Source: a virus. From it: DNA of 64,000 nt. A program made the position numbers and the translations under genes. This document shows positions 4,089 through 24,869 of this stretch, piece after piece; position 1 is the first letter of the stretch; every line of letters begins with the position of its first letter. Under the pieces are notes generated by a model. The model did no database searches, was not told the origin of the DNA, and worked only from the letters and a program-made list of their open reading frames with translations. Location: positions 62,875 through 126,874 of IMG/VR virus record IMGVR_UViG_3300045988_164636. One strand, 5' to 3'.

Positions 4089-4181
4089 ATGGCAACAATT
4101 AATTTATTAGCTTTAGAGCCTCATAAGGTTAGTAGAGATTTATCTGGGTACATTACCTACATATACGGAGCAGCAAAGACT
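4089..4181 (+). CDS. Sak4-like (AAA_24/RecA-like) ATPase, exon 1 of 2
   Basis: RBS aaaggag, ATG 4089, MATINLL..YIYGAAKT. Reading on hits a stop after 7 codons. Joining to 5248 rebuilds the Walker A GAAKTGKT in frame. Confidence 0.7.
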
Positions 4182-5247
4182 AGAGAGTTACTGGTCTCTT
4201 GATATGTAAATATCAAGCAAACATTGTAGTAAAAACGGGAACCCTAAACCAGTTTGGCAAGGGAATCCGAACGGAAGTTAATTTGTAATAAAGTTAACAC
4301 GTGCAACGCGTGGTTTTGAAACTAAATAAGGAGTGTATATCGCATATGATAACCCAAGAAAATAAATTATTAATAGTAAAAATGTATAATGAAGGAAGTT
4401 CGTTATCAGAATTATCAAGATTATTTGCTATTGATACAACAGTTATAAAATCAATTTTAAATGAATATAATATTCATATAAGGACAAGAGGAGAACAAAC
4501 TCGTCTGACAAATATGAAGAGAAGTAAATCAGTTGATAATTTTTATTTCTCTAATATAAATACAATAAATAAGGCGTGGATGTTAGGCTTTCTTGCCGCA
4601 GATGGTAGTATAGCAAAAGAAAGAAATACAATTTCAATTGCATTAAGTACAGTAGATAGAGAAATTTTAGAAAAAATAAAAGAAGAAATTAAAATAGAAA
4701 AAACTATTTATGATAGTGAAACTAATAATGGATTTTTAGTATCAAAATTAGAATGGTCAAGCTTACAACAGAAAACAGATCTAAGTAAATATGATATAGT
4801 AAATAATAAAACTTATTTACCAATTCATTTGCCACATTTTGATAATGATAACCTAACGTTAGCTTATATTTTAGGGTACTTTGATGGAGATGGCTCTATT
4901 ACTATCAATAATAATAAGTATTTAAGATTTAGGATCTGCTCTCATAGAAATGAAATTCTGCAAGATATAGCTAATTTTATTGAAAAAAAATATGGAGCGA
5001 CATATTCTTTAAATCAAGACAAAAGAAAATTATATGAATTAAGTATTTCTACTACTTATGCTATACCTTTATTAAATGACTGTTATAATTTAAATTCTAT
5101 CCATCTTGATAGAAAATATCAAAAATATTTAGAATATAAAAGAAACCAAGAGACTACAACATCCATGTAATTGGGATGAGAGGGTACGCTGAACTTATAG
5201 GAAACTATAAGAAGTAAAGGATAAAAAGCCTTTACGATAACAAATTG
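4182..5247 (+). mobile_element. group I intron A (1066 nt) carrying a LAGLIDADG homing endonuclease
   Basis: 5' splice site after U (agacu|) pairs with ggucu 4193-4197, giving a U-G wobble. Last nucleotide is G (..gauaacaaauug|). aaacgggaaccc and cugaacuuauagg..hairpin elements resemble T4 td-type introns. Confidence 0.75.
4346..5170 (+). CDS. LAGLIDADG homing endonuclease (double-motif) with N-terminal HTH
   Basis: LGFLAADGSI and LGYFDGDGSI motifs. RBS aaggag upstream of ATG 4346. The ORF-track start 4301 reads through intron RNA. Confidence 0.85.
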   Translation: MITQENKLLIVKMYNEGSSLSELSRLFAIDTTVIKSILNEYNIHIRTRGEQTRLTNMKRSKSVDNFYFSNINTINKAWMLGFLAADGSIAKERNTISIALSTVDREILEKIKEEIKIEKTIYDSETNNGFLVSKLEWSSLQQKTDLSKYDIVNNKTYLPIHLPHFDNDNLTLAYILGYFDGDGSITINNNKYLRFRICSHRNEILQDIANFIEKKYGATYSLNQDKRKLYELSISTTYAIPLLNDCYNLNSIHLDRKYQKYLEYKRNQETTTSM

Positions 5248-6141
5248 GGTAAGACCACTCTCGCCACAAGAGCGGGAGGATCACTTCTTCTTGCCTTTGA
5301 ACGTGGATATAATGCTTTACCCGGAGTTATTGCTCAGGATATTACATCATGGACAGAAATGAGAGCAGTATTAAGAGAACTAAAAAAGCCAGAAGTAAGA
5401 GAAAAGTTCAAGAGTGTAATAGTAGATACTGTAGATATTGCGGGAAGTTTTTGTGAAAAATACATTTGTACACAGAATGATGTTAATAAGATAGGTGATA
5501 TCCCTTATGGTGGAGGTTGGAACCTAATGAAGAAGGAATTTGAAGATGTCTTCCGTACGATCACTCAGCTGGGTTTTGCCGTTTTCTTTATCTCACATGA
5601 TAAAGACAAGGTTTTTAAGACAGAGGAAGGTTTTGAGTATAATCAAGTTATTCCTTCTTGTCCCACTTCTTTCAATAATATTGCAAAGGATATGAGTGAT
5701 ATTTATGCTTATGCTAAGAAATATCAGGAAAATGGAGTAGCTAAGGTAAAGTTAATTCTTCGTTCAAAAGATAATAGCGTAGATACCGGTTGCCGCTTCA
5801 AATATATTGAACCAGAAATTCCAATGAGTTATGAAGCTCTTGTTGATGCTTTAAATAAAGCAATTGACGAAGAAGCAAAAGAATATGACAATGAATTTGT
5901 TACTGATGAAAGAAATGTTGATGTGGTAAAGAAAGAATTAAATTATGATGAATTAATCAAAGAATTTAATTCTATTACAGCAGAATTAATGAATAAAGAT
6001 GCTGAAACATTCGGTCCTAGAATTGTTTATATTGTTGAAAAATATTTAGGTAAGGGAAAGAAAGTTGCAGAATCTTCAATAGCACAGGTCGAATTAATTG
6101 ATTTAATAGTTAGTGAAATTAAAGATGACCTCTTAAAGTAA
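5248..6141 (+). CDS. Sak4-like ATPase, exon 2 of 2
   Basis: Begins GKTTLATRAGG (rest of the P-loop). VIVDTVD is Walker-B-like. Has no start codon or RBS of its own. Confidence 0.75.
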   Translation, partial: GKTTLATRAGGSLLLAFERGYNALPGVIAQDITSWTEMRAVLRELKKPEVREKFKSVIVDTVDIAGSFCEKYICTQNDVNKIGDIPYGGGWNLMKKEFEDVFRTITQLGFAVFFISHDKDKVFKTEEGFEYNQVIPSCPTSFNNIAKDMSDIYAYAKKYQENGVAKVKLILRSKDNSVDTGCRFKYIEPEIPMSYEALVDALNKAIDEEAKEYDNEFVTDERNVDVVKKELNYDELIKEFNSITAELMNKDAETFGPRIVYIVEKYLGKGKKVAESSIAQVELIDLIVSEIKDDLLK

Positions 6142-19147: not shown

Positions 19148-19354
19148 ATGATTTTATATTCAACAGGTTGTCCTAAATGTAATGTGTTAAAAAAGAAAAT
19201 GGCGGCAGTTGGGATCAACTATACTGAGATCAATGATCCCGCCGCAATAAAAGAAAAAGGAATTGTATTTGTTCCTGTTCTTGAAGTCAATGATAAACTC
19301 TACAACTTCAAAGAAGCTGTAGATTATATAAATAATTTAAATAAGGGTGATTAA
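19148..19354 (+). CDS. NrdH/glutaredoxin-like redoxin
   Basis: 68 aa. CPKC active-site motif at residues 8-11. Immediately upstream of nrdD. Confidence 0.7.
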   Translation: MILYSTGCPKCNVLKKKMAAVGINYTEINDPAAIKEKGIVFVPVLEVNDKLYNFKEAVDYINNLNKGD

Positions 19355-20645
19355 ATTGAACAAAAAAATTAAATTAAGTAAAAACTTTACTACTGAATTT
19401 AATAAACTTACAGAAGAATTAGGAGAAGAATTTGAATTAATAAATGGTTTTCATGAAACACAGTTAAATGGAACTGATTTTATTGATAATTTTACCGCAG
19501 ACAACAAACCTGTTGCGGACACTACGATTGATGCTAATGCTTCTGTAACAACTAAAGACATTCAGTCTTTATTAAAAGAAAAAGATAAATCTGAAAATAA
19601 GTTGCTTGCTTTTAATAAAATATTTTATGAATTACAGAAGGAATATGGAATAAAAATTGCTAGAGAGTGGCTGGCTATGGAAATGGGTCCATTCTTATAT
19701 ATGCATGATGCACCTACATCTACGTTCTTCAGCTATTGCTTTGCGTACGATTTATCTAGATTAGCAACGGAAGGTCTATTTTTTATTGACAACTACAATA
19801 ACGAGCCTCCTAAACATCTCCAAACATTCTTAGACGACGTCATAGAATATATATCCTACATGTCGAACAGATCATCTGGGGCAGTAGGAATACCCGATAT
19901 TCTTATCTGGATGTTTTACTTCTGGAAGCATGATGTAGAACAGAATTATTATTTAGTATCGCCAGAATATTACTTAAAACAAGCTTTTCAAAAATTAATT
20001 TATAGATTAAATCAAAAGTTCTATAGAGATCAAACTCAAACAGTATTTTCAAATATGAGTATTTTTGACAGTCTTTATCTTGAAGCTTTATTTGGCGGAA
20101 GAGAATATCCTGATGGTACATTTGTTATCGATTATCTTGATGATATTATGAAAGTTCAGAAAATGTTTATGGACACAGTATCAGAAATTAGAAGCCAGAA
20201 TCTATTCACATATCCAGTCTTGACGTTTTCTTTAATCTACCGTAACGGTCATTTCGAAGATGAAGAGTTCGCTAGGTGGGCTAGCAATCATAACCGCAAG
20301 TGGAATGATTCAAATTTCTTTATTAGCGAAAATCCCGGAGCTTTATCCAATTGTTGCCGGCTCATTTCAGACACTACACAATTAGATCCATTTATTAATT
20401 CAATAGGTGGAACAGCTTTATCAGTTGGTTCTGTAAAAGTTTCAACAATTAATCTTGAAGCTATTGCGTTTGAATATCCTAATAATGAAGATAAATTTAT
20501 TGAAAAATTAAATAGAGTGCAATATATTGATATGTGTGCTTTAGACAGGGTAAGACATATTATTCAAAGAAACATAGAAAAGAAACTTCTTCCTAACTTT
20601 ATTGAAGGCGGGGTTGAAATGGATAAACTATTTAATACAGTAGGT
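19347..20645 (+). CDS. nrdD: anaerobic ribonucleotide reductase NrdD, exon 1 of 3
   Basis: Large class III RNR-like ORF. Reading on past ..LFNTVG gives a stop 3 codons later. A TTG at 19356 with RBS aagggtga is an alternative start. Confidence 0.75.
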
Positions 20646-21934
20646 TCAATCTAAAGAGCCTTATATTACTTAACCAATTTAAAATATTGGGGTCACAAGG
20701 GTGGCTAACGGGGAAAGCTAAGTTAAAAATATGCCAATCCCGTGGGAGGTTATTAAAAATGAATAGACATAATCATAAGAAAAAAGATATTTATATTATA
20801 AAAAATGATATTAACAATAAGGTTTATATAGGACAAACTGTTAACCCTAAACAAAGATGGGAACAATATTGCTCTTTAGTAAAACATAAACCGAATACCC
20901 AAGTTATTACTAAAGCAATGAAAAAATATGGTATTGAACATTTTACTATGTCAATCTTAGAAAATGATGTTGTAAATTATGATGAGAGGGAAAAATATTG
21001 GATACAAAAATATAATAGTCTTGTTCCAAATGGCTATAATGTAGCTATCGGTGGAGATGGAATAGGAAGTGGAGTTAATAATCCAATAGCAAAAGTAAAA
21101 AGTGAAGATGTTTTAATGGAATTAATTGATGAAATAATTCAAAATGTTTTGCCTTTTAAAATTTTAGCAAAAAAATATGATTTATCTGAGGGACAAATTT
21201 CAGAAATTAATAGGGGAAAGGCATATTATAATTCAGAATTAAGCTATCCTCTGCGACAATCAAGATACACAGAAGAAAAAATTAAACAATTAACATATTC
21301 TTTAAAATATGAACTTGATAAAAGTTTAAAACAAATAGCGAAAGAATATGAGATTGATTTATCTTATCTTAATGACATCAACCAAGGCAGAGTTTGGTAT
21401 AGGAGCTATATAAATTACCCTATAAGATTAGGAAAAATGAAAAAAGCTGAAATTATTCATCCTCAAATAAAAGAATTATTAAAAAACTCAACTCTCTCTC
21501 AAAAAGAAATCGCAAAAAAATTCAATATAAGTCAAATGGTGGTTAGTGAAATTAATCAAGGGAAAAAAGGATATGATAAAAACATTGATTATCCTATTAG
21601 AAAAAATTATCAAAAGGAAAGAAAAGAAACTACTTTATCTCCAGACATAATTGATGAAATTTGCAATATCATATTAAATACCAATCTTTCATTAAAAGAA
21701 ATTTCAAAAAAATACGAAGTTTCATATGCTACTATTCAGAATATAAATAGTGGAAAAGTAATAAAATATCGCAATGAAAAAAAATATAAATATCCTTTAA
21801 GAGATAATAGAAAATAACTGCCTGTATCGACTATTCGTGGATAACGAAGTAGGTAAAATACCAAAAGAGTAATAGCATTAACAAGGGTTAGTGTTAAAAG
21901 ATAGTCAGTACCATTAGAAATAATGGATAATATG
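20646..21934 (+). mobile_element. group I intron B (1289 nt) carrying a GIY-YIG homing endonuclease
   Basis: aggu| pairs with gccu 12 nt downstream (U-G at the splice site). td-like uaacggggaa..caaucccgug, aucgacuauucg and gauagucag elements. Ends ..ggauaauaug|. Confidence 0.7.
20759..21817 (+). CDS. GIY-YIG homing endonuclease with four tandem HTH-like modules
   Basis: IYIIKN..VYIGQT..R..NGYN. RBS gggagg before ATG 20759. Four repeats of ..EINxGK..YP(L/I)R. Confidence 0.85.
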   Translation: MNRHNHKKKDIYIIKNDINNKVYIGQTVNPKQRWEQYCSLVKHKPNTQVITKAMKKYGIEHFTMSILENDVVNYDEREKYWIQKYNSLVPNGYNVAIGGDGIGSGVNNPIAKVKSEDVLMELIDEIIQNVLPFKILAKKYDLSEGQISEINRGKAYYNSELSYPLRQSRYTEEKIKQLTYSLKYELDKSLKQIAKEYEIDLSYLNDINQGRVWYRSYINYPIRLGKMKKAEIIHPQIKELLKNSTLSQKEIAKKFNISQMVVSEINQGKKGYDKNIDYPIRKNYQKERKETTLSPDIIDEICNIILNTNLSLKEISKKYEVSYATIQNINSGKVIKYRNEKKYKYPLRDNRK

Positions 21935-22114
21935 TTTTTAGGTTTATATGAAGTAATGGATATTTATGGGTATATTAATGAAGATGAATTTGGCTATAAG
22001 AGTTATTCAGATAAAGGTATAGCCTTTGCTCAAAAAATATTTGACGCATTAAATAAAAATAAAGAGGTTTTCTGCGCAGACCGAGATTATAAGATAAACC
22101 TCGAATCCGTCCCT
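21935..22114 (+). CDS. nrdD: NrdD, exon 2 of 3
   Basis: Joins as ..LFNTVG|FLGLYEV.. and ends ..INLESVP|. Has no RBS or start codon of its own; the track ATG 21923 lies in the intron tail. Confidence 0.7.
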
Positions 22115-23329
22115 AAAAAATCTGGGGCTAAATAAATTAAAACTTATTTAGAAAATTCTCTCTAATTGACTTGGAACGCCCCATCGGGGTGGACAGGGCG
22201 GAAGGAGTTTTTCCACCGTGAACGACTAAATGAGAGAACACCTGAAAAAGGTGATGCGATAGTCTGAGCTCTACCATATAAAGAAAGTAGAGAATGAAAT
22301 TTAACGATTTCATCGCCATACAATAAATACCACTCATTTGAAGAGTATAAAAAGAAAGGAAAACTATGAAAAATATTATTAAAAATGCCAGTGGCAAGCC
22401 CATTGGAACGGTTGAATTGACAGCAAACACAATAAAAATAATGAATGATACTAAACCCGTTTTAGAAATTCAAAATTCTAACTTAGCTCAACAAATTATA
22501 AATAAAGATAATAGCCCAGAAATTTTAAAGATACTATATGATAATTATTTTTTATCTGCCGGAGAAATTGCAGCTTTATATGAAGTTTGTTATTCTAATA
22601 TGAACAAACAACTTAAATCAGTTAGTTTAGAAACAAGTGCTAAACAGGGACGAAGAAATAGATCCTACGGGAAACCTCAGTCCGAAGAATGCTTAAGAAA
22701 AAAATCTGAAACAATGAAAAGAAAAGTTGCTAATGGCGAATATACTCCTCCAAATTATGAAAGAACGCCTGAAATAAAAGAAAAGATTTCTCGTGGACTA
22801 AAAGAATATTATAAAAATCATCCTCAAGATCCAACTCCTCATATAAATAATTGGAAAAAAGGAGTTTATGATAATGTAGATTTTCATATAAGTATTGGTG
22901 GGAAAATGTTTTCTATAAAAAATCAAAAAACATATAATTTTAGAAGTTTATTAGAATTATATTATATGTTGTTACTCGAAGATTCAACAGAAGTAGAATT
23001 TTATGAATATGAGCCTATACATATTAATTGTGAAAATGGACATATATATACACCAGATATTCTAATTAATAATACAACTTTAATAGAATTAAAGTCATAC
23101 AAATATATTCATAGTAAAGACGAAATTTTAAATTCCTTTAATTATAAAAAAGAACAGGCTGAAAAATATTGTAAAAATACAGAAATGCAATATAAAGTAG
23201 TATTTGATATTGATATTGATTTTGATTCTTCTCGATATAAAAGAGAACTAAAAAATCATCCTGAAATTATTGAAAAATATCACATTATTTTCAATCAGCC
23301 AGAACGTATGGTCATAAAGTAACAGATTG
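22115..23329 (+). mobile_element. group I intron C (1215 nt) carrying a TnsA-like PD-(D/E)XK endonuclease
   Basis: cccu| pairs with gggg 9 nt downstream. The core (gugaacgacuaaaug, gcgauagucugagc) lies 5' of the ORF. Ends ..aguaacagauug|, like intron A. Confidence 0.75.
22366..23322 (+). CDS. intron-encoded endonuclease: NUMOD3-like repeats plus C-terminal TnsA-N/PD-(D/E)XK domain
   Basis: GRRNRSYGKPQSEE and TPEIKEKISRGLK look NUMOD3-like. SLLE..YTPDILI..LIELK matches the E..PD..ExK nuclease pattern. Confidence 0.55.
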   Translation: MKNIIKNASGKPIGTVELTANTIKIMNDTKPVLEIQNSNLAQQIINKDNSPEILKILYDNYFLSAGEIAALYEVCYSNMNKQLKSVSLETSAKQGRRNRSYGKPQSEECLRKKSETMKRKVANGEYTPPNYERTPEIKEKISRGLKEYYKNHPQDPTPHINNWKKGVYDNVDFHISIGGKMFSIKNQKTYNFRSLLELYYMLLLEDSTEVEFYEYEPIHINCENGHIYTPDILINNTTLIELKSYKYIHSKDEILNSFNYKKEQAEKYCKNTEMQYKVVFDIDIDFDSSRYKRELKNHPEIIEKYHIIFNQPERMVIK

Positions 23330-23800
23330 GGAGAGTCGGCTGCAGTCAAACTCGCGGCAAAAGATAGATTATACTATGCTCATCCTAAATGTCACGAAAT
23401 TTTAAGTAATCAGTGGATACCATTAACAGAAAAATGTACAATAGAGGAAAAAGCAAGATTATCAGGATTATTTGATAAACGTTGCGGAGGCGGAGTTATT
23501 GCACATATTAACATAGAAAGCGAGTTCCCAACAGAAGAATCAGCTTGGAATATGTTAAATTATTTAGCTTCACATAATGTTATTTATTTTGCTTTCAATA
23601 GCAGAATAAATGAGTGTGCAAATCATCATGGCTTTGTTGGAACTAAAATTTGTCCAGAGTGCGGAGGAGAGGTTATAGATACTTATCAGAGAATCGTGGG
23701 TTATTTAGTACCTACAAGATCTTATTCTGCCGCCCGCAAAAAAGAATTCGGTAAAAGGCAATGGTATAATATAGGAAATATGATAGATACGATAGGTTAA
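23330..23800 (+). CDS. nrdD: NrdD, exon 3 of 3 (glycyl-radical domain)
   Basis: Junction ESVP|GESAAVKLAAKD restores a conserved NrdD block. Zn site C..H..CPECGG. Glycyl radical motif RIVGYL. Confidence 0.85.
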   Translation, partial: GESAAVKLAAKDRLYYAHPKCHEILSNQWIPLTEKCTIEEKARLSGLFDKRCGGGVIAHINIESEFPTEESAWNMLNYLASHNVIYFAFNSRINECANHHGFVGTKICPECGGEVIDTYQRIVGYLVPTRSYSAARKKEFGKRQWYNIGNMIDTIG

Positions 23801-23802
23801 AT

Positions 23803-24273
23803 ATGAAGATTAGACAATTAATTATCGGGGATTTTATCAATTATAAAAAACCAAGTATGGTAATCGCAATGCCATATTGTAGTTTCAAATGCGAAAAAGA
23901 GTGCGGAATAGCTTGCTGTCAAAACAGCGAGCTAGCCACTGCCCCTCTTATAGAAACAGATGTTCAAACATTAATAAAATATTTTGATAAATCGGATATT
24001 TGTCAGGTAGTTGTTTTTGGTGGTTTAGAACCTTTTGATAGTTATGATGATTTATTCATCTTTATTAAAGAATTTAGAAAAAATCATACTAATGATATAG
24101 TTATCTATACAGGATATTATAAAAATGAAATAATTGATAAAATTGAACCTCTTAAAAAATATCAAAATATTATTATAAAATATGGGCGTTTTATTCCTAA
24201 TGAAAAAGAAAAATTTGATTCTATTTTAGGAATAAAATTAGCAAGTCCTAATCAATATGCGGAGGTATTATGA
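23803..24273 (+). CDS. nrdG: NrdG-like activating enzyme (radical SAM)
   Basis: Position directly after nrdD. Cys cluster CSFKCEKECGIACC and GGLEP motif. The Cys spacing is not the textbook C-x3-C-x2-C. Confidence 0.55.
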   Translation: MKIRQLIIGDFINYKKPSMVIAMPYCSFKCEKECGIACCQNSELATAPLIETDVQTLIKYFDKSDICQVVVFGGLEPFDSYDDLFIFIKEFRKNHTNDIVIYTGYYKNEIIDKIEPLKKYQNIIIKYGRFIPNEKEKFDSILGIKLASPNQYAEVL

Positions 24274-24869
24274 AATATATTTTAACTGATGATGTTGAAG
24301 TAAAAACGGAAATATTAGAAGGATTAAAAAAGAATAAAAAACAATATGGAGAAAGATATTGTCCTTGCGTCAATCCTTCTGAATATAATGAAGATTACAT
24401 TTGTCCTTGTAAGGATTTTAGAGAAAATGTTAAAGGCGGAGAACCTTGTCATTGTGGTTTATATATAAAAGAAAAAACAGAAGAAGAAAAAACTCATATG
24501 AACTTAGGTTCAATATATGATTATAATAAATCTGTTTATGACAACTTTAAACCTTTAGATAGGATAATGTTAAATTTGAATCAAAATTTAGTTGATCATT
24601 TTATTGAAGATACTAAAAATAAATATTATATGCTTCTCAATAGAGAAAATGCAGACTATACTATTTTTACAGTCGATTATACCAGACCTGCAAAAAGAAA
24701 ATCTGCCGCAAAAATTCTTATTGATGAATGTATCTATAATAGAGGTCAAGCTATTGATATAAATTTAACAGAAGATAAAACAGCTATTGAAATTTGGCTT
24801 CGTAATGCGGAAAATGAAAATTTATGTTATTATTTCTTTCCTTATGATGCCGCAATAATTGAGGTGTGA
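24270..24869 (+). CDS. ferredoxin-thioredoxin-reductase catalytic-subunit-like domain fused to a domain of unknown function
   Basis: RYCPC..(12)..CPC..(13)..CHCGLY matches the CPC..CPC..CHC pattern of FTR catalytic chains. About 130 aa of C-terminal sequence is unassigned. Confidence 0.5.
   Translation: MKYILTDDVEVKTEILEGLKKNKKQYGERYCPCVNPSEYNEDYICPCKDFRENVKGGEPCHCGLYIKEKTEEEKTHMNLGSIYDYNKSVYDNFKPLDRIMLNLNQNLVDHFIEDTKNKYYMLLNRENADYTIFTVDYTRPAKRKSAAKILIDECIYNRGQAIDINLTEDKTAIEIWLRNAENENLCYYFFPYDAAIIEV

What the first reader, a model, noticed from the sequence alone, without database searches (positions are those of the whole stretch)
19347..23800. nrdD interrupted twice, by introns carrying two different endonuclease families
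The class III RNR gene is in three exons (1299, 180 and 471 nt). The junctions LFNTVG|FLGLYEV and NLESVP|GESAAVKLAAKD both recreate blocks that look like conserved NrdD sequence. The glycyl-radical motif RIVGY and the Zn site are in exon 3. Intron B carries a GIY-YIG enzyme and intron C a PD-(D/E)XK enzyme. T4 nrdD is known to have one intron. Two introns only 180 nt apart with unrelated endonucleases is more extreme.
Basis: partly seen in the sequence, partly recalled or inferred. Interest (0 to 1): 0.65.

Follow-up and report, generated by a model that had tools for sequence, protein, structure and literature searches.

The report
Phage nrdD split by two introns

Summary
Exons 19347-20645, 21935-22114 and 23330-23800 join into a 649-aa NrdD. 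It matches the Pfam NRDD profile end to end and aligns without gaps to Thermotoga NrdD. It also aligns base for base to uninterrupted alleles in syntenic relatives (about 93% nt, 99% aa identity).

Both insertions are group I introns. Each follows a U that pairs with G in P1, ends in G, and has a P10 guide. Intron B (20646-21934) is IA2-like, with P7.1/P7.2, a P5 receptor and a GAAA-capped P9. An I-TevI-type GIY-YIG gene sits in its P6 loop. Intron C (22115-23329) has its whole core 5' of the ORF. Its structure is backed by strong covariation in 20 relatives. Its ORF is a PD-(D/E)XK nuclease with a TnsA / T7 endonuclease I-like core.

The two introns occur independently in relatives. Other relatives carry a third intron or an intein.

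The novelty is modest. Multi-intron phage RNR genes (Twort, Brochothrix A9) and nrdD in up to four pieces (gut jumbo phages) are published. The freshest element is the intron C endonuclease family: unnamed, uncharacterised, and found at this one nrdD site in all eight contexts checked. Splicing itself was not tested.

The parts
19347..20645 (+). nrdD exon 1 (433 codons; ends ...LFNTVG on a T)
   Evidence: Pfam NRDD profile 13-334. Contiguous with exon 2 in L001, L002 and L003. The start may be 3 codons downstream.
20646..21934 (+). Intron B, a 1289-nt group I intron of IA2-like architecture
   Evidence: Absent precisely from L001, L002 and L003. P1 is AGGT|TC (20642-20647) with the guide GAGCCT (20656-20661), with U.G at the splice site. 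P10 guide is CTAAAGA (20651-20657) with TTTTTAG of exon 2, 7 bp. P3 is TATTACT (20664-20670) with AGTAATA (21868-21874). P4 is CGGGG/TCCCG. P7 is CGACTA (21828-21833) with TAGTC (21902-21906). P7.1 is 21834-21848, P7.2 is 21852-21862, P8 is 21878-21897. P9 with a GAAA loop is 21911-21926. The terminal G is 21934. An ORF-less family member in phage AlexBoehm is annotated as an nrdD intron and matches Rfam Intron_gpI end to end at E 3.6e-4.
20759..21817 (+). Intron B ORF: I-TevI-type GIY-YIG homing endonuclease (352 aa) with several HTH modules, located in the P6 loop
   Evidence: Pfam GIY-YIG 2e-12. TIGR01453 'group I intron endonuclease' scores 62.3 bits against a cutoff of 56.05. I-TevI catalytic domain 1mk0/1ln0 at E 4e-9, with the R27, E75 and N90 equivalents present. 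phrog_7168 homing endonuclease 1e-37. The GGGAGG Shine-Dalgarno lies within the P6 5' strand.
21935..22114 (+). nrdD exon 2 (60 codons, FLGLYEV...NLESVP, ends on a T)
   Evidence: Fills the Pfam profile gap of about 349-414 in the spliced protein. There are 17 nt differences but only 2 aa differences from L001. No Shine-Dalgarno precedes it, and the in-frame ATG at 21923 lies inside the P9 hairpin.
22115..23329 (+). Intron C, a 1215-nt group I intron with the whole catalytic core (22115-22345) 5' of the ORF and no P7.1/P7.2
   Evidence: Absent precisely from L001 and L002. P1 is CCCT|A with TGGGG (22123-22127). P10 guide is TCT (22121-22123) with GGA of exon 3. P7 is CGACTA (22223-22228) with TAGTC (22260-22264). 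P3, P4, P6, P8, P9 and P9.1 were recovered by RNAalifold, with 21 of 31 pairs compensatory. 96.9% of cells pair against 38-48% when partners are slid; covariation score 0.487 against 0.08-0.13; 0 of 500 shuffles reach it. P9.2 is CCATAC (22316-22321) with GTATGG (23306-23311) and encloses the ORF. ORF-less versions at the same nrdD site keep the same 3' tail (L012, L029). The terminal G is 23329.
22366..23322 (+). Intron C ORF: PD-(D/E)XK nuclease (318 aa) with a TnsA / T7 endonuclease I-like core, plus an N-terminal beta-domain, an HTH-like element and NUMOD3-like modules
   Evidence: Invariant E197, P230-D231 and E241-x-K243 in 37 homologs. Pfam Tn7_TnsA-like_N (22.2 bits) and Phage_endo_I are both below gathering. 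The profile aligns FRSxLE / YTPD / ExK onto T7 endo I. The AlphaFold model has pLDDT 93. The top Foldseek PDB hits are all TnsA, probability 1.00. About 130 unnamed homolog clusters exist. All 8 contexts examined are at this nrdD site.
23330..23800 (+). nrdD exon 3 (156 codons plus stop; GESAAVKLAAKD..., Cys/His metal site, glycyl-radical RIVGY)
   Evidence: Pfam NRDD profile 416-562. Contiguous with exon 2 in L001 and L002. No Shine-Dalgarno precedes the TTG at 23327.
23803..24273 (+). nrdG-like radical-SAM activase, immediately downstream (context)
   Evidence: Pfam Fer4_12 6e-9. Same position in L001-L007.

Best explanation
[quoted passage not shown] Each intron folds into a ribozyme. Its internal guide sequence pairs with the last bases of the upstream exon (P1, U.G wobble at the cleavage site) and with the first bases of the downstream exon (P10). 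An external guanosine attacks the 5' splice site, and the freed exon then attacks the bond after the intron's terminal G. Removing both introns yields a 1950-nt ORF for a complete Thermotoga-type NrdD.

Each intron carries its own homing endonuclease gene in a peripheral loop: a GIY-YIG enzyme in the P6 loop of intron B and a PD-(D/E)XK enzyme in the P9.2 loop of intron C. In a mixed infection, each enzyme is expected to cut the intron-less nrdD allele of a related phage near its insertion site. Repair from the intron-bearing copy would then copy in the intron and some flanking exon.

Shown here: the exact boundaries, the RNA architecture with covariation, the enzyme families, and the independent presence or absence of each intron in relatives. 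Inferred: actual splicing, and endonuclease activity and target.
For: (1) Intron-less alleles at about 93% nt identity show both insertions as exact, indel-free additions.
(2) The spliced protein is a full-length NrdD with gap-free junctions.
(3) Exons are under strong purifying selection: 121 of 1950 nt differ from L001 but the proteins are 99% identical. Exon 2 has 17 nt and 2 aa changes.
(4) Both 5' splice sites follow U and both introns end in G. The intron C-bearing allele has CCT where intron-less alleles have CCC.
(5) P1 and P10 pair correctly. In intron C relatives they covary with the exon sequence: CCCT/GGGG against GCCT/GGGC for P1, and TCT/GGA, ACT/GGT, TGT/GCA for P10.
(6) Intron C core: 36 pairs, 96.9% paired, 21 pairs with double changes, 0 of 500 shuffles, and slid controls at 38-48%.
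(7) Intron B family (26 members): conserved P4, P7, P7.1, P7.2, P8, a GAAA-capped P9, a P5 receptor-like CCTAAG/TATGG motif, and a P3 that covaries. An ORF-less member is an annotated nrdD intron and hits Rfam Intron_gpI at E 3.6e-4.
(8) Both endonuclease ORFs are intact, have Shine-Dalgarno sequences and keep their catalytic residues. Exons 2 and 3 have no translation signals.
(9) Independent assemblies show -/-, -/C, B/C and A'/B/C states (L001, L003/L006, window/L166, L031).
(10) Exon divergence from L001 is 17-20% within 15 nt of each junction against 6.2% overall, all synonymous. This fits co-conversion or target-site and guide-sequence constraints.
(11) Published RNA-seq shows splicing of multiply split nrdD in other gut phages (PMC12880540).
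Against: No RNA or biochemical data exist for this sequence, so splicing and cleavage are inferred. Rfam Intron_gpI gives no hit on the window, not even at E<=10 on the contiguous intron C core. It also gives no hit on ORF-less intron C relatives, although it does detect the T4 nrdD intron at 105 bits. Intron C's assignment therefore rests on my own structural analysis. P1 of intron C is short (4-5 bp). In the intron B family, two hairpins sit between the P3 5' strand and P4, which is not the textbook layout. The intron B family structure was assessed sequence by sequence rather than by a column-based covariation test, because MAFFT mis-registered the variable regions. The junction-proximal excess of substitutions rests on small counts (5-6 in 30 nt).
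Confidence: 0.88

Rival explanations
1. Genes-in-pieces without splicing. Endonuclease genes were inserted into nrdD, and the three fragments are translated separately and assemble non-covalently into an active reductase, as described for Aeromonas phage Aeh1 nrdA split by mobE.
For: The precedent is cited in PMC3653736. An in-frame ATG lies 4 codons upstream of exon 2, and a TTG lies 1 codon upstream of exon 3.
Against: No Shine-Dalgarno precedes either candidate start, whereas neighbouring genes and both endonuclease ORFs have one. The ATG at 21923 lies inside the P9 hairpin. About 230-250 nt of non-coding sequence per insertion is conserved as covarying RNA structure, which a free-standing endonuclease insertion does not need. 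ORF-less versions of both intron families sit in nrdD genes: L012 and L029 at the intron C site, AlexBoehm at a different site. A 60-aa middle fragment is an implausible independent subunit.
Confidence: 0.04
2. A decaying gene: the insertions are relics that no longer splice, and nrdD is a pseudogene in this phage.
For: Splicing is untested. PMC3653736 discusses degenerating split RNR genes in some phages.
Against: All three exons keep 99% aa identity to the intact allele despite 6% nt divergence. The ribozyme cores match the family consensus at all invariant positions. Both endonuclease ORFs are full length with catalytic residues. The same arrangement persists in diverged lineages (L031, L166).
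Confidence: 0.05
3. Assembly artefact or chimera: the insertions were joined into nrdD by mis-assembly of metagenomic reads.
For: None specific. The window is probably from a metagenome, and its nearest relatives are metagenomic contigs.
Against: Independent assemblies from different samples show the same insertions at the same bases: L003, L004-L007, L031, L032, L164-L166. The boundaries coincide with functional P1/P10 pairings.
Confidence: 0.01

Closest known systems
Phage T4 nrdD (sunY) group I intron encoding I-TevII (GIY-YIG)
   Same: Same host gene family (class III RNR large subunit). A group I intron carrying a homing endonuclease. As in intron C, the catalytic core is contiguous and lies 5' of the ORF (Rfam hit at L163 7653-7884, ORF downstream). 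Its P7 - P7.1 - GUAG - P7.2 - CGAAA - P3' - P8 layout matches intron B's 3' half.
   Different: One intron, not two. It sits at a different site, splitting a Tyr codon at NRDD profile position about 142, against about 348 and 415 here. T4 NrdD is a different NrdD subtype: the T4 structure is not even hit by the window protein. Intron C lacks P7.1/P7.2 and carries a PD-(D/E)XK enzyme rather than GIY-YIG.
Phage T4 td intron with I-TevI
   Same: Intron B has an I-TevI-like GIY-YIG catalytic domain encoded in the P6 loop. Its ribosome-binding site lies in P6, and it has the IA2-type P7.1/P7.2 (td layout from my own knowledge).
   Different: Different host gene. The DNA-binding region is built of repeated HTH modules. 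There are extra hairpins between P3 and P4 and no P2 before P3.
Multi-intron phage RNR genes: Staphylococcus phage Twort nrdE (two group I introns), Brochothrix phage A9 nrdE (three introns plus an intein), SPbeta nrdE (intron plus intein), and gut 'Jug' jumbo-phage nrdD (up to four fragments)
   Same: Several self-splicing elements in one RNR gene, at conserved motifs, with mixed endonuclease families. In Jug phages, nrdD specifically is fragmented in 95 of 104 genomes, the genomes encode HNH, PDDEXK_5, GIY-YIG and LAGLIDADG endonucleases, and RNA-seq supports splicing (PMC3653736; PMC12880540).
   Different: Different phage lineage: a low-GC genome, about 25-35% in the stretch profiled, whose closest nrdD relatives include a Bacilli MAG. 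It also has different intron families and sites, and a different PD-(D/E)XK subtype (TnsA / Endo I-like rather than PDDEXK_5).
rV5-like Escherichia phage nrdD intron (e.g. AlexBoehm MZ501048)
   Same: Same intron family as intron B, sharing GGGGTCA...TGGCTAACGGGGAA...AATCCCGTG...ACGACTA...GATAGTCTG. It is in nrdD and is annotated as a 2-piece join.
   Different: ORF-less (257 nt), and at a different site (SVNG|QTPF, profile position about 154) in a T4-type NrdD.
Known PD-(D/E)XK-type homing endonucleases: I-Ssp6803I and the EDxHD enzyme I-Bth0305I
   Same: Intron-encoded nucleases of the restriction-endonuclease-like fold. I-Bth0305I is also from a phage group I intron (PMC3239194).
   Different: No sequence match to either, even at E<=10 with the family profile. 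I-Bth0305I is only rank 39 in the fold search, while TnsA takes the top four places. The motif here is E...PD...ExK, not EDxHD.

Membership tests
Group I intron (intron C, 22115-23329) | 5' splice site after a U that forms a U.G pair with an internal guide sequence (P1) | tested here: met
   CCCT|A pairs with TGGGG. It covaries in relatives: GCCT/GGGC, and ATCCCT/GGGGAT. Intron-less alleles have C instead of T at -1.
Group I intron (intron C, 22115-23329) | Terminal G, and P10 pairing of the guide with the 3' exon | tested here: met
   G23329. The TCT/GGA guide pairing covaries as ACT/GGT, TGT/GCA and GCT/GGC in relatives.
Group I intron (intron C, 22115-23329) | Conserved core: P3-P8 and P4-P6 domains, with a P3/P7 pseudoknot and a G.C guanosine-binding pair in P7 | tested here: met
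   Order is P3-P4-P5-P6-P7-P3'-P8-P7'-P9. 36 pairs are 96.9% paired; P3, P8, P9 and P9.1 covary; P4, P6 and P7 are invariant.
Group I intron (intron C, 22115-23329) | Match to the curated covariance model Rfam RF00028 | tested here: not met
   No hit at gathering or at E<=10 on the window, and none on ORF-less relatives at E<=1. The same model scores the T4 nrdD intron at 105 bits. This is a limit of the model for this subgroup, or a real departure.
Group I intron (intron B, 20646-21934) | P1 with U.G, a terminal G, and P10 | tested here: met
   AGGT|TC/GAGCCT (6 bp). P10 is CTAAAGA/TTTTTAG (7 bp). G21934.
Group I intron (intron B, 20646-21934) | Conserved core, with IA-type P7.1/P7.2 between P7 and P3' | tested here: met
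   Per-sequence dissection of 16 family members shows P7.1, P7.2, P8, a GAAA-capped P9 and a covarying P3. The layout matches T4 sunY. Caveat: two hairpins lie between P3 and P4.
Group I intron (intron B, 20646-21934) | Match to Rfam RF00028 | tested here: inconclusive
   The window copy is split by the ORF and gives no hit. The ORF-less family member in AlexBoehm matches the full model at 29.8 bits, E 3.6e-4, below the gathering score of 50. L078 gives no hit.
Group I intron (both) | GTP-dependent self-splicing | not testable with these tools
   Needs in vitro transcription and splicing, or RT-PCR.
GIY-YIG homing endonuclease (I-TevI type) | GIY-YIG catalytic domain with conserved Arg, Glu and Asn, scoring above a curated cutoff | tested here: met
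   TIGR01453 scores 62.3 against a cutoff of 56.05. Pfam PF01541 scores 47.4 against 22.6. The alignment to 1mk0/1ln0 shows the R, E and N equivalents; the first motif reads DIY instead of GIY.
PD-(D/E)XK nuclease superfamily (TnsA / T7 endonuclease I-like) | E ... PD ... (D/E)xK catalytic motif on a restriction-endonuclease-like alpha/beta core | tested here: met
   E197, D231, E241 and K243 are invariant in 37 homologs. The model has pLDDT 93. The top four Foldseek hits are TnsA, probability 1.00, E about 2e-3. The motifs align to T7 endo I.
PD-(D/E)XK nuclease superfamily (TnsA / T7 endonuclease I-like) | Pfam family membership above the gathering score | tested here: not met
   Tn7_TnsA-like_N scores 22.2 against 26.5; Phage_endo_I scores 20.9 against 29.1. 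It is a distant relative, not a member of either curated family.
Homing endonuclease (functional definition, both ORFs) | Cleaves the intron-less allele near the insertion site and promotes intron inheritance | not testable with these tools
   Only indirect evidence: the introns are present or absent independently among close relatives, and substitutions are elevated next to the junctions.
Class III ribonucleotide reductase NrdD | Full-length NRDD domain with a thiyl-radical Cys loop, a C-terminal metal site and the glycyl-radical RxxGY motif, next to an NrdG activase | tested here: met
   Pfam 13-562/562 at 281 bits. 4u3e at E 5e-137. NCCRL, CPEC and RIVGY are present. nrdG lies at 23803-24273.

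The most novel reading that the evidence does not exclude
The intron C ORF represents an uncharacterised lineage of homing endonucleases. It has a TnsA / T7 endonuclease I-like PD-(D/E)XK core fused to HTH and NUMOD3-like modules. It is distinct from I-Ssp6803I and from the EDxHD family, and it appears dedicated to one site in nrdD (VP|GE or IP|AE) across many gut phage lineages. Its stop codon and last codons are embedded in the ribozyme's P9.2 3' strand and 3' tail. The intron that carries it belongs to a group I subgroup that the current Rfam model does not detect.
Probability: 0.5. Interest if true: 0.5.

Novelty: new member of a known kind. Interest (0 to 1): 0.36.

Why it matters
It adds a well-resolved example of a phage RNR gene acting as a landing pad for several selfish elements. 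Close relatives provide a natural allelic series: uninterrupted, intein-bearing, one intron, two introns and three introns. That series would let homing, co-conversion and interference between two endonucleases only 180 bp apart be studied directly.

The practical yield is twofold. First, a defined candidate family of PD-(D/E)XK homing endonucleases with a known natural target. Only one classical PD-(D/E)XK homing enzyme and one EDxHD enzyme have been characterised, so new scaffolds interest both specificity studies and engineering. Second, two intron families with ready-made alignments that current Rfam-based annotation misses or under-scores. This causes nrdD to be mis-annotated as fragments in metagenomic phage genomes.

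Tried and rejected
- Rfam on the window, at gathering and at E<=10 over 20500-23450, gave no group I hit. I first took this as uninformative. The control showed the model does detect the T4 nrdD intron and, weakly, the AlexBoehm intron, but not the intron C relatives. So it is reported as a failed membership test for intron C, not dismissed.
- Megablast of the region against deposited phages gave no match. A sensitive blastn of the intron C core found only three unannotated partial hits.
- phmmer of the intron C ORF against the PDB gave only noise and a marginal T7 endo I hit.
- I guessed that the extra intron of L031/L032 (RSSG|AVG) shares the rV5-type site (VNG|QTPF). Pfam coordinates reject this: about 104 against about 154.
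- I initially mis-remembered the T4 nrdD intron enzyme as I-TevIII. The record shows I-TevII, a GIY-YIG enzyme.
- The MAFFT alignment of ORF-deleted intron B family members (A2) mis-registered P7.2/P3', so I did not run column-based covariation on it and used per-sequence folding instead.
- Aligning the intron C core with T4 sunY showed no meaningful similarity beyond P7/J8-7. T4 sunY resembles intron B's 3' half instead.
- Several regular-expression and frame errors cost calls (20, 21, 50-52).
- Inteins were considered and rejected for the window: stop codons follow both junctions.
- I did not build a covariance model or determine the subgroup of intron C.

Full report
**1. The observation**

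ORF listing and direct reading confirm three NrdD-like coding pieces on the + strand:
- 19347-20645 (1299 nt)
- 21935-22114 (180 nt)
- 23330-23800 (471 nt)

They are separated by 1289 and 1215 nt. The frame hits a stop 2 codons after the first junction and 6 codons after the second, so the insertions are not in-frame and are not inteins.

Pfam sees NRDD profile positions 13-334 in piece 1 and 416-562 in piece 3. The conceptually spliced 649-aa protein matches 13-562 of 562 in one stretch at 281 bits. It aligns to Thermotoga maritima NrdD (4u3e/4coi, E about 5e-137) with no gap at either junction.

The large protein collection gives the strongest test. P0001 is an uninterrupted 646-aa protein, 99% identical over the full length. 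Its contig L001 is syntenic with the window: PolIII-alpha, guanylate kinase, a thioredoxin-like gene, nrdD, nrdG, an FeThRed_B-like gene and dUTPase.

At the DNA level (about 93% identity), window positions 20645|21935 and 22114|23330 are contiguous in L001 and L002. A 300-nt stretch across both junctions aligns ungapped at every position.

**2. What the insertions are: intron C (22115-23329)**

The 251 nt between exon 2 and the ORF have elevated G+C and contain sequences like the classical R and S elements (GAACGACTAAATG, GCGATAGTCTGA).

The endonuclease's homologs sit at the same nrdD position in L003-L007. An exact-string scan for the invariant core found 23 more viral contigs. L012 and L029 among them carry ORF-less versions at the same nrdD site, with the same 3' tail GTCATAAAAGTAACAGAATTG.

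On a 20-sequence alignment, RNAalifold recovered P3, P4, P6, P8, P9 and P9.1, with compensatory double changes in 21 of 31 pairs. With P7 added as a pseudoknot:

| Measure | Observed | Control |
|---|---|---|
| Cells forming a standard pair | 96.9% | 38-48% when 3' partners are slid |
| Covariation score | 0.487 | 0.08-0.13 when slid |
| Shuffles reaching any observed measure | 0 of 500 | |

The helix order is P1-P2-P3-P4-P5-P6-P7-P3'-P8-P7'-P9-P9.1-P9.2, which is the group I core. There is no P7.1/P7.2.

P1 (CCCT|A with TGGGG, U.G at the cleavage site) and a 3-bp P10 (TCT with GGA of exon 3) are present. Both covary with exon sequence in relatives: GCCT/GGGC for P1, and ACT/GGT, TGT/GCA and GCT/GGC for P10.

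The allele with the intron has CCT at the end of exon 2, where intron-less alleles have CCC. That is the U required at position -1.

The ORF lies in the loop closed by CCATAC (22316-22321) and GTATGG (23306-23311). Its last codons overlap that 3' strand and the conserved tail.

**3. Intron B (20646-21934)**

The ORF splits the core into 113 nt on the 5' side and 117 nt on the 3' side.

A sensitive blastn of the joined halves hit rV5-like Escherichia phages. In phage AlexBoehm the nrdD CDS is annotated as a two-piece join. The 257-nt ORF-less intron there shares the GGGGTCA...TGGCTAACGGGGAA...AATCCCGTG and ACGACTA...GATAGTCTG blocks with intron B.

A string scan plus filtering gave 26 family members in viral contigs. 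MAFFT mis-registered the variable parts, so I dissected members one at a time. Essentially all of them show:
- P7.1, P7.2 and P8 hairpins between the two P7 strands;
- a P9 capped by a GAAA tetraloop;
- a CCTAAG...TATGG-type receptor motif in P5.

A long-range P3 could be traced in the window, L031, L032, L045, L072, L079 and L109, and by eye in L078. Its sequence differs between members while staying complementary (window UAUUACU/AGUAAUA; L072 AUACCUUU/AAAGGGUAU; L045 UGUAUGUUUUC/GAAAGACAUACA).

The P7 - P7.1 - GUAG - P7.2 - CGAAA - P3' - P8 layout is the same as in the T4 nrdD intron, which makes it IA2-like.

In the window, P1 is AGGT|TC with GAGCCT (6 bp, U.G at the site). P10 is CTAAAGA with TTTTTAG (7 bp). 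The intron ends in G21934.

Rfam's Intron_gpI model gives nothing on the window. It matches the AlexBoehm family member end to end at 29.8 bits, E 3.6e-4.

**4. An honest negative**

The same Rfam model scores the T4 nrdD intron at 105 bits and several introns in L086. It gives no hit at E<=1 on ORF-less intron C relatives. It gives none at E<=10 on the contiguous intron C core in the window.

Intron C's classification therefore rests on the structural and covariation analysis above, not on the curated model. Its subgroup is undetermined.

**5. The endonucleases**

*Intron B ORF (20759-21817, 352 aa).* It is I-TevI-type GIY-YIG:
- Pfam GIY-YIG 2e-12.
- TIGR01453 'group I intron endonuclease' above its curated cutoff, 62.3 against 56.05.
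- I-TevI catalytic-domain structures at E 4e-9, with the Arg, Glu and Asn equivalents present.
- Several HTH modules downstream.
- Its GGGAGG ribosome-binding site is part of the P6 5' strand, as with I-TevI in td (my own knowledge).

*Intron C ORF (22366-23322, 318 aa).* It gives only sub-threshold Pfam hits, to Tn7_TnsA-like_N and Phage_endo_I. About 130 unnamed homolog clusters exist. Further evidence:
- An alignment of 37 of them has E197, P230-D231 and E241-x-K243 invariant, plus GEIA and GRRN motifs in the N-terminal half.
- The family profile aligns FRSxLE / YTPD / ExK onto T7 endonuclease I.
- The AlphaFold model is confident, pLDDT 93.
- Its best PDB fold matches are all TnsA, probability 1.00. 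I-Bth0305I appears only at rank 39.

It is of a TnsA / Endo I-like type that matches neither characterised homing enzyme of that fold by sequence.

All eight genomic contexts examined for the family (40-97% identity) are at this one nrdD site.

**6. Population picture**

| Locus | State of nrdD |
|---|---|
| L001 | No insertion |
| L002 | 395-aa intein with LAGLIDADG blocks at FFSY\|CFAYD (Cys1 ... HN\|Cys+1) |
| L003, L006 | Intron C only, exons 1 and 2 fused |
| Window, L166 | Introns B and C, with a 59/60-aa middle exon |
| L031 | A further related GIY-YIG intron after ...SNRSSG, plus B and C |
| L032 | The same further intron plus B; the locus ends before the C site |

On the Pfam NRDD coordinate the intron sites are: about 104 (L031 extra), about 142 (T4, splitting a Tyr codon), about 154 (rV5-type), about 348 (B) and about 415 (C). 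Neither window intron occupies the T4 site.

Nucleotide divergence from L001 is 6.2% over the gene but 17-20% within 15 nt of each junction, and all of it is synonymous. This fits co-conversion, target-site variation or guide-sequence constraints. The counts are small.

**7. Rivals**

*Split gene without splicing (Aeh1 nrdA style).* This is disfavoured for four reasons:
- Exons 2 and 3 lack Shine-Dalgarno sequences, while neighbouring genes and both endonuclease ORFs have them.
- The in-frame ATG before exon 2 lies inside P9.
- The non-coding parts are conserved as covarying RNA.
- ORF-less versions of both intron families sit in nrdD genes: L012 and L029 at the intron C site, AlexBoehm at another site.

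*Pseudogene.* Disfavoured by 99% amino-acid identity despite 6% nucleotide divergence, and by intact cores and ORFs.

*Mis-assembly.* Excluded in practice by the same structures in many independent assemblies.

**8. Comparison with what is known, and novelty**

PMC3653736 reports nrdD as the most frequently split RNR gene in sequenced phages. It cites Twort nrdE (two introns), Brochothrix A9 nrdE (three introns plus an intein), SPbeta nrdE (intron plus intein) and c-st nrdD (intein).

PMC12880540 reports nrdD fragmented in 95 of 104 gut jumbo-phage genomes, into up to four pieces. Those genomes encode HNH, PDDEXK_5, GIY-YIG and LAGLIDADG endonucleases, and RNA-seq supports splicing.

The finding is therefore a well-documented new member of a known kind. 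The parts that look undescribed in the literature I could search are the TnsA / Endo I-like intron endonuclease family tied to one nrdD site, and the intron family that carries it.

**9. Verdict**

The mechanism is very likely (0.88) but untested at the RNA level. Interest is modest (0.36). The most novel reading not excluded is a new homing endonuclease lineage (probability about 0.5).

Noticed in passing
window 4089-6141 (insertion 4182-5247; ORF 4301-5170): A third interrupted gene in the window. The P-loop of an AAA_24 ATPase (...IYGAAKT|GKTTLA...) is split by a 1066-nt insertion that follows a T, ends in G and carries a LAGLIDADG_3 ORF of 289 aa. Its RNA structure was not analysed.
   Followed up: partly
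L031 about 1060-2150 and L032 about 1060-2100: Relatives carry an additional GIY-YIG-containing insertion in nrdD after ...FMSNRSSG (Pfam NRDD position about 104). Its 5' core is about 70% identical to intron B's. That gives three introns in one nrdD in L031.
   Followed up: partly
L002 6385-7565 (equivalent to window about 19730): A 99%-identical NrdD allele (P0002, 1041 aa) carries a 395-aa intein with LAGLIDADG blocks at FFSY|CFAYD (Cys1 ... HN|Cys+1) and has no introns. Intein and introns are alternative occupants of the same gene in near-identical phages.
   Followed up: partly
window 20674-20716, and all intron B family members: Two hairpins (CCAAT...ATTGG and GGTCAC...GTGGCT, the latter with invariant flanks GGTCA/TGGCT) lie between the 5' strand of P3 and P4. 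No P2 precedes P3. This is not the textbook group I order. I could not tell whether it is a described peripheral element.
   Followed up: no
window 23300-23329; L012 and L029 3' tails: The last codons of the intron C endonuclease (...NQPERMVIK*) overlap the P9.2 3' strand and the conserved 3' tail GTCATAAAGTAACAGATTG, which ORF-less introns also keep. The conserved C-terminal peptide may therefore reflect RNA constraints, and translation of the ORF end may compete with folding of the 3' splice-site region.
   Followed up: partly
window 19148-19354 and 24270-24869: nrdD-nrdG is flanked by a thioredoxin/glutaredoxin-like gene upstream and a gene matching the FeThRed_B domain (ferredoxin-thioredoxin reductase catalytic chain) downstream. 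The NrdD is Thermotoga-type, not T4-type. This suggests a thioredoxin-dependent rather than formate-dependent class III RNR, with its own electron-delivery module. The inference is from my own knowledge of such systems.
   Followed up: no
L086 7800-15000 (IMGVR_UViG_3300045988_131511): Seven Rfam Intron_gpI matches (23.7-59.3 bits, two above the gathering score of 50) lie within about 7 kb of one 161-kb viral contig, in addition to two intron B family copies. This is a very intron-dense phage region.
   Followed up: no
L166 (ERZ28654642 scaffold_334, 132 kb): A diverged phage, whose intron C endonuclease is only 42% identical, has the same layout as the window: NrdD-N, GIY-YIG ORF, 59-aa exon, TnsA-like ORF, NrdD-C. 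The two-intron layout therefore recurs across lineages.
   Followed up: partly
window 19347-19358: The nrdD start is uncertain. The GTG at 19347 overlaps the end of the upstream gene, and homologs are called 3 codons shorter (MNKKIKL...), but the window has CTT at that codon.
   Followed up: no
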